Shown: positions 26,394 through 28,996 of the stretch, piece by piece
How positions within the stretch are numbered: the first letter of the stretch is position 1
Layout of the letters: each line of letters opens with the position of its first letter
NCBI RefSeq assembly: GCF_003428155.1
Contig: NZ_QLIR01000003.1
Span: forward strand, 30,001-62,000
Source: Fastidiosibacter lacustris
GTDB taxonomy: Bacteria; Pseudomonadota; Gammaproteobacteria; Francisellales; Francisellaceae
Reading direction: 5' to 3'
Length of the DNA stretch: 32,000 nt
The notes under the pieces: model-generated
What the model was told of the DNA's origin: nothing
Seen by the model: only the letters and a program-made list of their open reading frames with translations
The model's database searches: none
Made by a program: the position numbers and the translations under genes

Positions 26394-27272
26394 TTATACA
26401 TTTATGCTTTTTCGGTAAAGCTTAAAGATAATCGAAAGTGTCAAAATGAGAGCAAATAGAGTTGCAAAGATACCATCGACCATGATTGCCCTAATATCAC
26501 CAGCGAAAACAAGCTCAAAAATAAATGCCATAAGTGGTGTAAAGCCCATAGCAATAGAATGAATATTTGGTCCAACTTTGGCGATGGATATTTGTGAACA
26601 GTAAATAGGAATAATTAAACTAATTAAGCTAAGCGCTAATGTTAACCATAAAACTTTGTCATCAATCAATGTCAGTTCACCATGGGTTGCACTCCAAATA
26701 AATGGGATTAAAAACAGTAAGATGTAGCGTGAAGCTAGAATTTCGCTGGCAGAAAAAGACAATAAATTCATCTGGTAAGATAGGTGTGAATATAGATACA
26801 TAGTAACACCAACAATAAGTGTACCGATCAGAAGAAATGCAAATTCATTCCATGAATAAACATTGGTGAGCGTCACATAAAACGCGGTGATAATCAGAAA
26901 TAGCAATAGTGTAAAGAGTAAATCGCTTTTGTCTTTCTTTTTCCGCCAAAGCATGTAAGAACCGATAACAGAGGGGAAAGCCGTGGCAAAAAACATAAGT
27001 AATGCAGGGCTGTAATATACGGGAATTATAAAGCTCATTAACCACATGAGTAGAAAAATAAAGATTACTTGCAGGTAGAGATTTTTATGTTGCCATAGTT
27101 TTTTGTAAAGTGAAACAAGCGTTTTATAAGATACTAAATGAAAAAAGACAAGTGCATATAGACTGCTTAGAGTGATCATTAAGCCCACTGGAATTTCGTT
27201 TCCTACGTTGTGTATCAGGCTTACTGAGGCGCCGTTTATGATAATAAAGGCGATGGTAAAAAAATATTTCAT
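26394..27272 (-). CDS. DMT/EamA-like ~10-TM membrane protein (putative exporter), translationally coupled to the ATP-grasp gene
   Basis: ATG 27272 lies 1 nt after the ATP-grasp TAA (taaAATG arrangement). The protein is two-fold repeated and very hydrophobic. The tracked TTG start at 27311 would overlap the upstream gene by 38 nt. Confidence 0.5.
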   Translation of the reverse strand: MKYFFTIAFIIINGASVSLIHNVGNEIPVGLMITLSSLYALVFFHLVSYKTLVSLYKKLWQHKNLYLQVIFIFLLMWLMSFIIPVYYSPALLMFFATAFPSVIGSYMLWRKKKDKSDLLFTLLLFLIITAFYVTLTNVYSWNEFAFLLIGTLIVGVTMYLYSHLSYQMNLLSFSASEILASRYILLFLIPFIWSATHGELTLIDDKVLWLTLALSLISLIIPIYCSQISIAKVGPNIHSIAMGFTPLMAFIFELVFAGDIRAIMVDGIFATLFALILTLSIIFKLYRKSINV

Positions 27273-27273
27273 T

Positions 27274-28461
27274 TTATAAGATATCCATATCCAGTAAGAT
27301 TGAAGTTTCATGTTCTAGCACATCAAAAGAAGAATGTGCCAGAAGTACCAGTGAACGAATGTCGGTTAAATCAGGGGTCCTGGAGAGATCGAGAGGCTCT
27401 TGCGTGAACGTTACATGACTGTGGTAACTCGCAAACTGTGAAAAATCTATTGTTTTGTGAGTATATAAGCATAGCGTGCGTACATAATGACAAGACAGAT
27501 TCAAGTCACTGGTCTTGGGTTCATCTCCTCTTAAGTAATGCACAAGCATCATATCTTGTGTATTTAGTCCCTGGGCTTTTGTCATCTTATTTAAGAAGCC
27601 AGAAGCACCACTGATTCTTGGATTTAATTCAATTAATCTGAACTCACCGTTTTCAAGATGAAATAGTTCGGTATGAGCAAAGCCATTTTGATAATCACAA
27701 GCATTTAGGACATTTTCCACAAAACTTATCACTTGATTTCTAAGCCCATGATCATATATTGGCTCTATGGTTCGATATACAGGGCTGCCTAGATAGTAGT
27801 TCTTGCGGTAGGTGAATATATTACTGATGTAGTGTCTTCCTTTCACTGAGAAAGAGTCTATAACCACCTCCTTTCCTTCTATATATTCTTGAATCAGATA
27901 ATGGTGGATAGGGTCAAAGTTGACCATTTTAGGACTTGATTTTAGTTTTTCTATCAATTCTTCATAAGTCTTTGCCATGAATATACCAATAGATCCTCCA
28001 CCGTTAGCAGGTTTGGCAAATACAGGATAATTAAAGGGTATAACCGCTTCATATTCGGGTATGGTGCAATCAAATAACATTTGTTGAATGGCTGGCATGC
28101 CTGATGCTGCCATTGCTTGTTGCTGTAAAAATTTGCTTTCCCGTAAATGCAAAGATTCCAGTTTATTGGCTGTGTTCGGTGTTAGCCTTCGTGCTAATTC
28201 CTCGGCAAAAGGTAAATGCTGGTCACATCCATTTAGTACGAAATCAATGCGAAAGTTCTGAAGTGCCTCTATTGCAGTATCCACATTCTGTTCCCCATGC
28301 AAATGAATCTGACGGTCGAATAAATGTGCAGCAGGTTGATTGAATGCAGCTATATTACTCATGTCCGAAAATAAAGCGATGGAGTAAATCCCTTGTTCCT
28401 TTAAAGCTGTGGATAAATAACCTGCGGAATGAATAGGGTCGATGATCAGTAATGTTTTCAT
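27274..28461 (-). CDS. ATP-grasp superfamily carboxylate-amine ligase (L-amino-acid-ligase-like)
   Basis: Rossmann-like N-domain MKTLLIIDPIHSAGYL, then PVFAKPANGGGSIGI, LIQEYIEGKEVVIDSF and HTELFHLENGEFRLIELNPRISGASG, which are typical ATP-grasp Mg/ATP-binding blocks. Confidence 0.8.
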   Translation of the reverse strand: MKTLLIIDPIHSAGYLSTALKEQGIYSIALFSDMSNIAAFNQPAAHLFDRQIHLHGEQNVDTAIEALQNFRIDFVLNGCDQHLPFAEELARRLTPNTANKLESLHLRESKFLQQQAMAASGMPAIQQMLFDCTIPEYEAVIPFNYPVFAKPANGGGSIGIFMAKTYEELIEKLKSSPKMVNFDPIHHYLIQEYIEGKEVVIDSFSVKGRHYISNIFTYRKNYYLGSPVYRTIEPIYDHGLRNQVISFVENVLNACDYQNGFAHTELFHLENGEFRLIELNPRISGASGFLNKMTKAQGLNTQDMMLVHYLRGDEPKTSDLNLSCHYVRTLCLYTHKTIDFSQFASYHSHVTFTQEPLDLSRTPDLTDIRSLVLLAHSSFDVLEHETSILLDMDIL

Positions 28462-28655
28462 ATTTTTATATCCTATATATCCATTTAATTATGATAACTT
28501 TTTGTGCACCTTGTGCCGATATTTCTTGATACAGCAAAAAGTCAAATTTCAGTCGATCACAATTTTGTTTCAAGTGTTACATGAGAACTCTTGGGTGCTA
28601 CGCCGTAATAAATGGCGAGTAATCATAGAAAAACTCACTACGGTGTTTGTCTAGA

Positions 28656-28841
28656 TTAAATCGTTGATCCGTTTGTGCAGGTATTGTTTGCTGCATAAAA
28701 TGATAACTCCTTTTTGTTTTTTTTATTCATTATATTCTGCATACTGACCATAGGAGCAGGAGCAGGAGCAGGAGCAGGAGCAGGAGCAGGAGCAGGAGCA
28801 GGAGCAGGAGCAGGAGCAGGAGCAGGAGCAGGAGCATACAT
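28656..28841 (-). CDS. Candidate small ORF encoding MY-(AP)14-MVSMQNIMNKKNKKELSFYAANNTCTNGSTI; coding status unproven
   Basis: The frame is open through the hexamer repeat, upstream of and co-oriented with the ATP-grasp gene. No convincing SD precedes either ATG 28841 or TTG 28865. Confidence 0.25.
   Translation of the reverse strand: MYAPAPAPAPAPAPAPAPAPAPAPAPAPAPMVSMQNIMNKKNKKELSFYAANNTCTNGSTI
28753..28836. repeat. Perfect 14-copy hexanucleotide tandem repeat (GGAGCA on plus, GCTCCT-phase on minus)
   Basis: Direct count: 84 nt with no interruption. Confidence 0.97.
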
Positions 28842-28996
28842 ATGCTTGATGATTATTGCAACCAATTTTATTTAGATATTAATAAATTGTATCCTTTTGT
28901 GTATTTTGGATGGATTATAATAATCTCTCTAAAAGAGGTTAAGTGGACTCCATAAGGAGAACAAAGCTTATTTCATTAGAAATATATAAAGATATT

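What the first reader, a model, noticed from the sequence alone, without database searches (positions are those of the whole stretch)
26394..28865. ATP-grasp ligase plus coupled DMT-like exporter preceded by candidate small peptide genes: a possible peptide-natural-product or RiPP-like cassette
The ATP-grasp gene stops 1 nt before the ATG of a ~10-TM DMT-like protein, a tight two-gene unit on the minus strand. It is wedged between trxB and mtnN.

The ~400 nt upstream, on the same strand, is not empty. It contains an ORF open through an (Ala-Pro)14 repeat and an overlapping 32-codon ORF with a strong Shine-Dalgarno.

ATP-grasp enzymes make dipeptide antibiotics (BacD-type L-amino-acid ligases) and macrocyclise ribosomal peptides (graspetides). 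At least one (pheganomycin PGM1) ligates a building block onto a ribosomally made peptide. A ligase plus exporter plus small-ORF arrangement is what a minimal pathway of that kind would look like. I cannot match it to a described system.
Basis: partly seen in the sequence, partly recalled or inferred. Interest (0 to 1): 0.75.

Follow-up and report, generated by a model that had tools for sequence, protein, structure and literature searches.

The report
Amino-acid ligase plus exporter; no peptide genes
This is a two-gene unit (an ATP-dependent amino-acid ligase and a membrane transporter) left over from a small mobile three-gene cassette; the "small peptide genes" in front of it are the stump of a deleted hydroxylase gene and an unstable six-base repeat, so it is an uncharacterised but ordinary kind of dipeptide-type pathway, not a ribosomal-peptide system.

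Summary
The window is Fastidiosibacter lacustris. The sequence features are real: a 395-aa ATP-grasp gene (27274-28461, minus) ends 1 nt before the ATG of a 292-aa, about 10-TM EamA/DMT-like gene (26394-27272). This pair recurs in Vibrio cholerae, Shewanella, a Neisseriaceae genome, a Francisella MAG, a Burkholderiales MAG and metagenomes, each time in a different neighbourhood. By sequence and fold the ligase is nearest to L-amino-acid ligases (BL00235, BacD, RizA, DdaF), not to graspetide, PGM1 or RimK enzymes.

The small-ORF reading fails.
- Five related loci carry a 225-248-aa Fe(II)/2-oxoglutarate dioxygenase directly upstream, with a BesD/HalD fold and an HxD...H triad.
- The 32-codon ORF is the 5' stump of that gene (N-terminal HMM E = 4.5e-6). 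A probable C-terminal scrap follows in another frame.
- An independent stump occurs in a metagenomic relative.
- The (Ala-Pro)14 ORF is a perfect (GCTCCT)14 repeat, open in several frames. It has 10 copies in the 99.3 %-identical 'Ca. Nebulobacter yamunensis', where a 1-nt indel also changes its downstream frame.

Ligase and transporter remain under purifying selection (dN/dS 0.08). Most likely they make and export an amide-linked amino-acid product that now lacks the hydroxyl group. The substrates are unknown.

The parts
27274..28461 (-). ATP-grasp ligase of L-amino-acid-ligase type, 395 aa (WP_116963455.1)
   Evidence: ORF. Pfam ATP-grasp_4 3e-14. NCBIfam PRK07206 1.7e-41 and DdaF 1.6e-24, both below cut-off. 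AF2 model pLDDT 92. Foldseek top hits are LALs: 3vot, BacD, RizA. Invariant K150, E265, E278, N280, R282 in the family alignment. Four synonymous and two non-synonymous differences from the Nebulobacter copy.
26394..27272 (-). About 10-TM EamA/DMT-like permease, 292 aa (WP_116963454.1); an alternative ATG at 27311 would give 305 aa
   Evidence: ATG lies 1 nt after the ligase stop. About 10 hydrophobic segments. EamA E = 0.004 for this protein; 6 of 9 homologues hit EamA, best 6.2e-8. Always found next to the ligase. Three synonymous and no non-synonymous differences from Nebulobacter.
28598..28696 (-). 32-codon ORF: 5' stump of a deleted BesD/HalD-like Fe(II)/2OG dioxygenase gene (homologous segment FNLDKHRSEFFYDY, 28619-28660)
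   Evidence: N-terminal 22-position HMM of the dioxygenase family gives E = 4.5e-6, the best of 2128 six-frame fragments of the window, with the next best at 0.078. tblastn E = 0.004-0.05 within the 800-nt region. Syntenic with the full-length gene in L001, L005, L006 and L047.
28587..28613 (-). Probable C-terminal scrap of the same dioxygenase gene (IYYGVAPKS, versus family FVYYGIxPKE), in a different frame from the stump
   Evidence: Top hit in the window for the C-terminal 18-position HMM, but only E = 0.06. 17 of 24 nt are identical to the L047 3' end by my reading of the alignment. Suggestive, not significant alone.
28752..28836 (.). Perfect hexanucleotide repeat (AGGAGC)14.2, read as GCTCCT on the minus strand; the source of the (Ala-Pro)14 ORF
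   Evidence: TRF score 170 with 100 % matches; the only such array in the window. 14 copies here versus 10 in 'Ca. Nebulobacter yamunensis'.
28717..28724 (-). A8 homopolymer between the repeat and the Shine-Dalgarno (28707-28712); length-polymorphic
   Evidence: A8 here, A7 in Nebulobacter. The indel shifts the Ala-Pro ORF into the stump's frame there, giving a 72-aa called gene at L094 2496-2714.
28914..28942 (-). Best sigma-70-like match in the intergenic region (TTAACC-17-TATAAT), upstream of the repeat; candidate ancestral promoter
   Evidence: 10 of 12 consensus matches. The number of such matches in the region is no greater than in shuffled sequence, so this is weak evidence.
28491..28519 (-). 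Second promoter-like match (TCGGCA-17-TATCAT), 30 nt upstream of the ligase ATG
   Evidence: 9 of 12 matches. Weak evidence.

Best explanation
The locus is a two-gene operon. The first gene encodes an L-amino-acid-ligase-type ATP-grasp enzyme. The second, translationally coupled, encodes an EamA/DMT-family permease. The operon is the surviving core of a small, horizontally mobile three-gene cassette: Fe(II)/2OG amino-acid hydroxylase, then ligase, then DMT permease.

Shown:
- In Fastidiosibacter an out-of-frame internal deletion of about 195 codons removed the hydroxylase. It left the ribosome-binding site, about 15 homologous N-terminal codons (the 32-codon ORF) and probably about 9 C-terminal codons.
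- A slippage-prone (GCTCCT)n repeat lies further upstream.
- The ligase and permease are intact and under purifying selection.

Inferred mechanism:
- The ligase activates the carboxylate of one amino acid, or amino-acid-like acid, as an acyl phosphate using ATP and Mg2+. It then condenses it with the amine of a second amino acid.
- The DMT protein exports the product.
- In the three-gene relatives one substrate is a side-chain-hydroxylated amino acid, possibly a basic one by analogy with BesD/HalD-family substrates. The Fastidiosibacter version would make the des-hydroxy product or use another substrate.

Neither small ORF encodes a substrate peptide.
For: Pair conservation across unrelated neighbourhoods.

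LAL placement:
- NCBIfam PRK07206 and DdaF are the best models.
- PDB profile hits are 30vh 'L-amino acid ligase' 3e-22, BL00235, RizA and BacD.
- Foldseek top hits are 3vot, 3vmm and 4wd3, TM 0.67-0.76.

Third gene:
- Full length in L001, L005, L006 and L047.
- Its AF2 model (pLDDT 91) matches HalD, HalB, BesD and their hydroxylase homologue 7jsd (E about 1e-10, TM 0.72-0.77).
- D127 and H183 are invariant and H125 nearly so.

Stump:
- N-terminal HMM E = 4.5e-6; the C-terminal HMM's top hit is the adjacent fragment.
- An independent stump in L004 has E = 6e-10 and a different junction.

Independent losses: L004 is sister to L006, which has the full gene; the window is nearest to L047, which also has it.

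Selection: dN/dS 0.08, 7 synonymous to 2 non-synonymous changes, P = 6e-4.

Repeat: 14 versus 10 copies, plus an A8/A7 frame change.

Other points:
- A different tailoring module (PDT-like, DUF6421, two aminotransferases) surrounds the same ligase and DMT core in L093.
- Precedent for a hydroxylase whose presence or absence switches the product of an ATP-grasp pathway: fuscazine A versus B (PMC13149037).
Against: - No substrate or product is known for any member.
- Every curated LAL model scores far below its cut-off, and structural identity to solved LALs is only 14-18 %.
- The transporter's direction is unknown, so it could import a substrate.
- The window protein's own EamA match is weak (E = 0.004). 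A profile of the family finds no solved structure. hhalign against a bona fide Pseudomonas EamA protein is not significant.
- The C-terminal scrap is not significant alone (E = 0.06).
- The start codon of the 32-codon ORF lies 11 codons upstream of the family's usual Met, so the original start is uncertain.
- Two independent lineages kept the same N-terminal stump, which could mean the stump itself is useful.
Confidence: 0.65

Rival explanations
1. First reader's reading. This is a RiPP-like, graspetide or PGM1-like system in which the ATP-grasp enzyme modifies, or ligates a building block onto, a ribosomal peptide encoded by the 32-codon ORF or the Ala-Pro ORF.
For: - ORFs with a good Shine-Dalgarno lie on the same strand directly upstream.
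- Two independent lineages (the window and L004) retain the same N-terminal peptide-coding segment.
Against: - The 32-codon ORF is homologous to the N-terminus of a 225-aa enzyme that is full length in four fetched relatives.
- L007/L013, L015, L016/L017 and L048-L050 have the ligase and DMT pair with no such ORF.
- The tail of the Ala-Pro ORF changes frame between 99.3 %-identical strains, and the repeat number varies.
- No graspetide (MvdC/MvdD, GRASP), PGM1 or RimK model or structure is among the 25 NCBIfam models shown, the 23 PDB sequence hits or the top 50 folds.
- tblastx and blastn find no other ORF conserved between the upstream regions.
Confidence: 0.03
2. Decaying relic. After loss of the hydroxylase the whole cassette is functionless in Fastidiosibacter and on its way to becoming pseudogenes.
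For: - The first gene of the cassette is destroyed.
- F. lacustris carries 129 predicted pseudogenes (PMC9837558).
- The Francisella MAG copies L016 and L017 look fragmented.
Against: - Both ORFs are intact in two strains, with dN/dS 0.08 (P = 6e-4).
- All family-invariant residues are retained.
- The 1-nt coupling junction is preserved.
- The hydroxylase was lost independently at least three times while the pair was kept.
Confidence: 0.1
3. Housekeeping or salvage role rather than a secreted natural product. The DMT protein imports an amino acid or derivative, and the ligase converts it into a dipeptide-like osmolyte, thiol or storage compound. Alternatively, the pair detoxifies an amino-acid analogue by ligation and efflux.
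For: - Transporter direction is not determinable from sequence.
- L015 has a Trp/Tyr-permease-family gene immediately upstream on the same strand.
- Some LALs act in primary metabolism, for example the S. aureus sulfur-amino-acid LAL (PMC9486568).
- The dioxygenase family also pairs with EamA genes without any ligase in Pseudomonas and Salmonella.
Against: - The distribution is patchy and often linked to IS elements or integrases: V. cholerae island L001, L093, L016.
- Variable tailoring modules are typical of accessory secondary metabolism.
- From general knowledge (not tested here), characterised EamA-type DMT proteins such as EamA/YdeD, RhtA and YddG are mostly amino-acid exporters.
Confidence: 0.17
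4. The repeat, the A-tract and the stump form a functional regulatory leader: a contingency locus that switches or tunes expression of the ligase-transporter operon by slippage.
For: - There are two slippage-type length differences within 120 nt (14 versus 10 hexamers; A8 versus A7) between genomes that are 99.3 % identical.
- The repeat lies between the best promoter-like site and the operon.
- As RNA it is (GCUCCU)n, complementary to AGGAG Shine-Dalgarno sequences.
- Precedents for intergenic and 5'-UTR repeat-driven phase variation: PMC2791445 and PMC12721329.
Against: - The putative 5' UTR shows no excess RNA structure (z = +0.48).
- The promoter matches are no better than in shuffled sequence.
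- No comparable repeat was noticed in the upstream regions compared, though no dedicated repeat search was run on those loci.
- A second promoter-like site lies downstream of the repeat, right before the ligase.
- Copy-number variation is expected for any long perfect repeat, whether or not it has a function.
Confidence: 0.12

Closest known systems
L-amino acid ligases (ATP-grasp; BacD/YwfE, BL00235, RizA/RhiM, DdaF)
   Same: - Three-domain ATP-grasp fold of about 400 aa.
- These are the best sequence and structure matches.
- Conserved Lys, Glu, Asn and Arg catalytic set, including the E-x-N-x-R motif (E278, N280, R282).
- Genomic setting beside amino-acid-tailoring genes and an exporter.
   Different: - Only 14-18 % identity to the solved LALs.
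- Below every curated family cut-off.
- The clade (369 50 %-identity cluster representatives at E <= 1e-30) has no characterised member among those sampled.
- Substrates are unknown.
Bacilysin operon bacABCDEF (warhead synthesis, LAL BacD and exporter BacE); general knowledge of the pathway
   Same: The logic is the same: make or modify a non-proteinogenic amino acid, ligate it to a second amino acid with an LAL, then export. L093 even combines a prephenate-dehydratase-like gene and aminotransferases with the ligase and DMT core.
   Different: - The exporter here is DMT/EamA-like, not MFS.
- The tailoring enzyme in the closest relatives is a single BesD-like Fe/2OG dioxygenase.
- The window copy has lost it altogether.
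BesD/HalA/HalB/HalD family of Fe(II)/2OG enzymes acting on free Lys or Orn (halogenases and hydroxylase homologues)
   Same: For the ancestral first gene, not the window stump:
- Best structural neighbours (E about 1e-10, TM 0.72-0.77).
- Weak Pfam HalD match over the full length, and HalD precomputed on four homologues.
   Different: - 12-15 % identity.
- An invariant Asp in the HxD motif predicts a hydroxylase, not a halogenase.
- The substrate is not known.
- In the window only about 15 + 9 codons survive.
Graspetide (microviridin-type) ATP-grasp macrocyclases and the PGM1 peptide ligase
   Same: ATP-grasp superfamily; small ORFs upstream at first sight.
   Different: - No family or structure match among the best hits.
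- No conserved precursor gene.
- The upstream ORFs are explained otherwise.
Intergenic simple-sequence-repeat contingency loci (e.g. nadA TAAA repeats in N. meningitidis, PMC2791445; H. influenzae 5'-UTR repeats, PMC12721329)
   Same: A long perfect repeat between a promoter-like site and an operon, with copy number differing between near-identical strains.
   Different: The unit is a hexamer. No effect on expression has been shown. No repressor or RNA element has been identified.

Membership tests
ATP-grasp superfamily | ATP-grasp fold with conserved ATP-binding Lys and Mg-binding Glu and Asn | tested here: met
   Pfam ATP-grasp_4 at 53.4 bits against a cut-off of 27. AF2 model pLDDT 92. 690 Foldseek PDB matches at E <= 0.001, with the 50 listed all ATP-grasp enzymes. 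K150, E265, E278 and N280 invariant.
L-amino acid ligase (LAL) | Closest relatives by sequence and structure are characterised LALs rather than other ATP-grasp clades | tested here: met
   Best PDB profile hits are 30vh 'L-amino acid ligase' 3e-22, BL00235 2.6e-15, RizA and BacD. Foldseek ranks 1-6 are BL00235, BacD and RizA plus one PurD-annotated chain. The best named NCBIfam model is DdaF.
L-amino acid ligase (LAL) | Score above the curated cut-off of a named LAL equivalog (DdaF, BacD, etc.) | tested here: not met
   DdaF 86.5 bits against a cut-off of 840; BacD 19.4 against 850; PRK07206 142 against 302. The same holds for 10 wider-clade members. It is therefore LAL-like, and not a member of any named LAL family.
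L-amino acid ligase (LAL) | ATP-dependent formation of an alpha-dipeptide from unprotected L-amino acids, releasing ADP + Pi | not testable with these tools
   Needs an enzyme assay.
Graspetide / microviridin-type RiPP system | Precursor peptide gene with leader and core conserved next to the ATP-grasp gene | tested here: not met
   The upstream ORFs are a dioxygenase stump and a variable repeat. Several orthologous loci have neither.
Graspetide / microviridin-type RiPP system | The ATP-grasp enzyme belongs to the MdnB/MdnC (RimK-like) macrocyclase clade | tested here: not met
   No graspetide model among the 25 NCBIfam hits shown. The RimK matches are marginal: Pfam E = 0.002 and TIGR00768 E = 2e-5, both below cut-off. 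None appear in the PDB lists.
PGM1-type peptide ligase (pheganomycin) | Homology to PGM1 and a neighbouring multi-core precursor peptide gene | tested here: not met
   PGM1 is absent from the 23 PDB sequence hits and from the top 50 folds. There is no precursor gene.
DMT superfamily / EamA family | About 10 TM helices with two EamA repeats detectable by Pfam PF00892 | tested here: inconclusive
   About 10 hydrophobic segments. The window protein matches only one EamA stretch (residues 146-278) at 17.9 bits against a cut-off of 28.2. 6 of 9 homologues match, best 6.2e-8, and L015 passes the cut-off at 28.8 bits. There is no PDB sequence hit, and hhalign against a Pseudomonas EamA protein is not significant.
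BesD/HalD-like Fe(II)/2OG amino-acid hydroxylase (ancestral first gene) | Jelly-roll 2OG fold nearest to BesD and the Hal enzymes, with a His-x-Asp...His iron triad | tested here: met
   This applies to the full-length relatives only. Foldseek E = 4e-11, TM 0.72-0.77. D127 and H183 are invariant and H125 is nearly invariant. In the window, only N-terminal residues 2-15 and possibly residues around 215-224 remain.
Phase-variable contingency locus | Repeat copy number varies between close strains AND changes expression | tested here: inconclusive
   Variation is shown: 14 versus 10 copies and A8 versus A7. The effect on expression is not testable here.

The most novel reading that the evidence does not exclude
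The ligase and DMT pair is a portable 'ligate-and-export' core. It recruits interchangeable amino-acid-tailoring modules: a BesD-like hydroxylase in Vibrio, Shewanella and metagenomes, and a prephenate-dehydratase-like plus aminotransferase set in L093. It stays useful after the tailoring gene is lost. In Fastidiosibacter its expression would be tuned by a hypermutable (GCTCCT)n / poly-A leader that already differs between the free-living strain and the ciliate endosymbiont 'Ca. Nebulobacter'. The recurrently retained N-terminal stump could be part of that leader.
Probability: 0.15. Interest if true: 0.55.

Novelty: new member of a known kind. Interest (0 to 1): 0.33.

Why it matters
It removes a false lead: there is no RiPP and no precursor peptides. 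It also shows how a deletion stump and a microsatellite can pass for small genes.

What remains is an uncharacterised, rare, horizontally scattered clade of L-amino-acid-ligase-like enzymes, always paired with a divergent DMT permease and often with a BesD-family hydroxylase. Such three-gene units are easy targets for heterologous expression. They could yield new hydroxy-amino-acid dipeptides or biocatalysts.

The repeated loss of the hydroxylase while the ligase and exporter were kept gives a natural experiment on pathway modularity.

Tried and rejected
- **Graspetide, PGM1 or RimK placement:** rejected, with no such hits.
- **Anti-phage defence system:** no PADLOC hit for the ligase, the permease or the dioxygenase.
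- **Riboswitch or known RNA in the 640-nt intergenic region:** only two sub-threshold, low-complexity Rfam matches.
- **Structured 5' UTR or anti-Shine-Dalgarno sequestration by the repeat:** folding is no better than for shuffled sequence, z = +0.48.
- **Whole-length dioxygenase HMM against the six-frame window:** the stump ranked first of 2128 fragments but only at E = 0.18. Terminal sub-HMMs were needed for significance.
- **Alternative that the remnant is only the gene's 3' end:** a local DNA alignment pulled the stump onto the C-terminal DTYRHEDFDNF region. This was rejected because the C-terminal HMM did not score that frame, while the N-terminal HMM gave 23.4 bits.
- **Identifying PDB entry 30vh:** no paper found.
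- **hhalign of the permease family against a Pseudomonas EamA protein:** not significant.
- **Permease profile against PDB sequences:** nothing found.
- **Conserved small ORFs in the upstream regions of loci without the dioxygenase:** none found.
- **Composition:** the cassette's G+C (35-38 %) matches the rest of the window, so there is no compositional sign of recent transfer.

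
Full report
**Source and observation**

The ATP-grasp protein is 100 % identical to WP_116963455.1 of Fastidiosibacter lacustris.

- The ORF map shows a 395-aa ORF at 27274-28461 (-).
- It is followed by a membrane-protein ORF whose annotated ATG (27272) lies one base after the ligase stop codon (TAA at 27276-27274).
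- The pair sits between a thioredoxin-reductase-like gene (25186-26139, -) and a PNP_UDP_1/MtnN-like gene (29101-29787, +).
- Upstream on the same strand are a perfect (AGGAGC)14.2 array at 28752-28836 and a 32-codon ORF at 28598-28696 behind an AAGGAG site.

**The ligase**

- Pfam gives ATP-grasp_4 (3e-14) plus weaker D-Ala-D-Ala-ligase and other ATP-grasp matches.
- NCBIfam's best models are PRK07206 ('hypothetical protein', 1.7e-41) and dapdiamide synthase DdaF (1.6e-24). Both are far below their cut-offs. RimK-type models are marginal, and no graspetide model appears among the 25 shown.
- A 14-sequence family profile finds 'L-amino acid ligase' 30vh (3e-22, full length), BL00235, RizA and BacD in the PDB.
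- The AlphaFold model (pLDDT 92) has BL00235, BacD and RizA as its best Foldseek matches (TM 0.67-0.76, 14-18 % identity). PurK and biotin carboxylases follow.
- An exhaustive profile search finds 369 cluster representatives at E <= 1e-30. Ten sampled members all behave the same way against NCBIfam.

The enzyme thus belongs to an unnamed LAL-like clade. It is not a graspetide, PGM1 or RimK enzyme.

**The pair is a conserved unit**

Homologues at 30-56 % identity are always next to a homologue of the membrane protein:

- V. cholerae (L001), Shewanella (L005/L014), Neisseriaceae ESL0693 (L007/L013), a Burkholderiales MAG (L015) and a Francisella MAG (L016, L017);
- metagenomic contigs L004, L006, L047, L048-L050, L092 and L093.

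The junction is a 1-nt gap, no gap or a 4-nt overlap. In L048 and L049 the gene order is inverted. The neighbourhoods are unrelated, and several carry integrase or IS genes.

The membrane protein has about 10 hydrophobic segments. Six of nine family members match Pfam EamA, best 6.2e-8, and L015 passes the cut-off. The window protein's own match is weak, and two other tests were negative. I call it DMT-like but divergent.

**What the small ORFs are**

In L001, L005, L006 and L047 a 225-248-aa gene lies directly upstream of the ligase. The contigs of P0006 and P0011 probably carry it too, because matching contig lengths link them to P0046 and P0042.

The product of this gene family has these properties:

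- It has at least 129 homologues, some named 'Fe2OG dioxygenase domain-containing'.
- D127 and H183 are invariant and H125 is nearly invariant.
- It has a weak full-length Pfam HalD match.
- Its AlphaFold model (pLDDT 91) has as nearest solved structures the free-amino-acid enzymes HalD, HalB, BesD and HalA and their hydroxylase homologue 7jsd.
- The Asp in the HxD motif predicts a hydroxylase rather than a halogenase. This inference rests on what is known of that family.

The window's 32-codon ORF contains FNLDKHRSEFFYDY, which aligns with the family N-terminus F[DN]I[ND]KHRYNYFYN[YF].

- tblastn gives E = 0.004-0.05 within the 800-nt region.
- The full-length HMM ranks this fragment first of 2128 six-frame fragments of the window.
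- A 22-position N-terminal HMM gives E = 4.5e-6, with the next best fragment at 0.078.
- Immediately after it, in another frame, IYYGVAPKS resembles the family's C-terminal FVYYGIxPKE. It is the top hit in the window for an 18-position C-terminal HMM, but only at E = 0.06. By my reading of the alignment, 17 of 24 nt are identical to L047.

The simplest reading is an out-of-frame internal deletion of about 195 codons. The 'strong Shine-Dalgarno' then belongs to the remnant of the destroyed gene.

L004 carries an unambiguous second example: 33 conserved N-terminal codons (E = 6e-10) with a different junction.

On a neighbour-joining tree of the ligases, L004 is sister to L006, which has the full dioxygenase. 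The window is nearest to L047, which also has it. L007, which has none, branches separately. The hydroxylase was therefore lost at least three times while the ligase and permease were kept.

**The Ala-Pro ORF**

The ORF exists only because a hexamer repeat without stop codons is open in several frames. One search also lists a poly-Leu ORF and a Gly-Ala ORF over the same repeat.

[quoted passage not shown] In that genome:

- the repeat has 10 units instead of 14;
- an A8 tract (28717-28724) is A7;
- as a result, the part of the ORF after the repeat is read in a different frame and runs into the stump ORF.

A protein whose C-terminal third is replaced between near-identical strains is not a conserved gene.

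**Is the pair still functional?**

Between the two strains the ligase has 4 synonymous and 2 non-synonymous changes. The permease has 3 synonymous and none non-synonymous. Combined dN/dS is 0.08, and the probability of so few non-synonymous changes under neutrality is 6e-4. The intergenic region is about three to ten times more divergent than the genes. Both genes are therefore maintained by selection.

**Mechanism**

This part is inferred.

- The ligase should activate a carboxylate as an acyl phosphate and condense it with an amino group.
- The coupled DMT protein should export the product, although import cannot be excluded.
- In three-gene relatives one substrate is presumably the hydroxylase's product.
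- L093 replaces the hydroxylase with a prephenate-dehydratase-like gene, DUF6421 and two aminotransferases, flanked by IS elements. This suggests a constant 'ligate-and-export' core with variable tailoring modules.
- The fuscazine pathway gives a published case in which the presence or absence of an Fe/2OG hydroxylase switches the product of an ATP-grasp pathway (PMC13149037).

**Checks that found nothing**

- No PADLOC match.
- No Rfam family above threshold in the intergenic region.
- No excess RNA structure in the putative leader.
- Promoter-like matches are no more frequent than in shuffled sequence.
- No other ORF is conserved among the upstream regions.

**Verdict**

The RiPP and small-peptide half does not.

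The locus is a degenerate member of an uncharacterised LAL and DMT cassette family. It is of moderate interest for natural-product mining but is not a new kind of system. The variable repeat and A-tract are the only unexplained elements, and they may or may not influence expression.

Noticed in passing
window 28717-28836; L094 about 2500-2600: Two slippage-type length differences lie within 120 nt: (GCTCCT)14 versus 10 copies, and A8 versus A7. They separate F. lacustris from the 99.3 %-identical ciliate endosymbiont 'Ca. Nebulobacter yamunensis'. This is a possible contingency locus upstream of the ligase operon.
   Followed up: partly
window 28995-29029 (minus strand): An AT-rich 16-pair hairpin sits in the divergent mtnN/cassette intergenic region. 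By my reading of alignment A3, most of the roughly 10 intergenic substitutions between the two strains fall in or just beside it. The changes break pairs rather than compensate.
   Followed up: no
L011 3718-3930 and 4980-5435; L012 67-1479: In Allofrancisella guangzhouensis the same Fe/2OG dioxygenase gene is split by an insertion of about 1 kb. In L012 an rve-integrase (IS) gene sits directly upstream of the 147-aa 3' piece. An EamA gene lies nearby, but there is no ligase.
   Followed up: partly
L010 4056-5678; L008 3942-5681: In Pseudomonas and Salmonella the dioxygenase (about 70-76 % identical to the cassette copies) sits next to a different EamA gene, which is fragmented in Salmonella, and there is no ATP-grasp gene. 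The dioxygenase is much better conserved (about 70-80 %) than the ligase (about 45-55 %) across the same span of taxa.
   Followed up: partly
L093 979-7865: An IS240-flanked cluster runs PDT-like, DUF6421, aminotransferase, ligase homologue (42 % identity), aminotransferase, EamA-like. It looks like a larger, bacilysin-style pathway built on the same ligase and DMT core.
   Followed up: no
L016 and L017, 4001-6075: A Francisella MAG carries two copies of the ligase and DMT pair. Both break into several tblastn segments, and L016 has an IS240-type transposase upstream. They are either pseudogenes or indel errors of a long-read assembly.
   Followed up: no
window 22704-25183: A second PNP_UDP_1-family phosphorylase gene (22704-23450, -) and an amino-acid permease gene (23735-25183, +) lie just beyond trxB. 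The window therefore holds two nucleoside-phosphorylase-superfamily paralogues within 7 kb.
   Followed up: no
L015 2776-6105: In the Burkholderiales MAG the ligase and DMT pair is preceded, 14 nt upstream on the same strand, by a Trp/Tyr-permease-family gene. This hints at an aromatic amino-acid substrate in that distant (32 % identity) branch.
   Followed up: no
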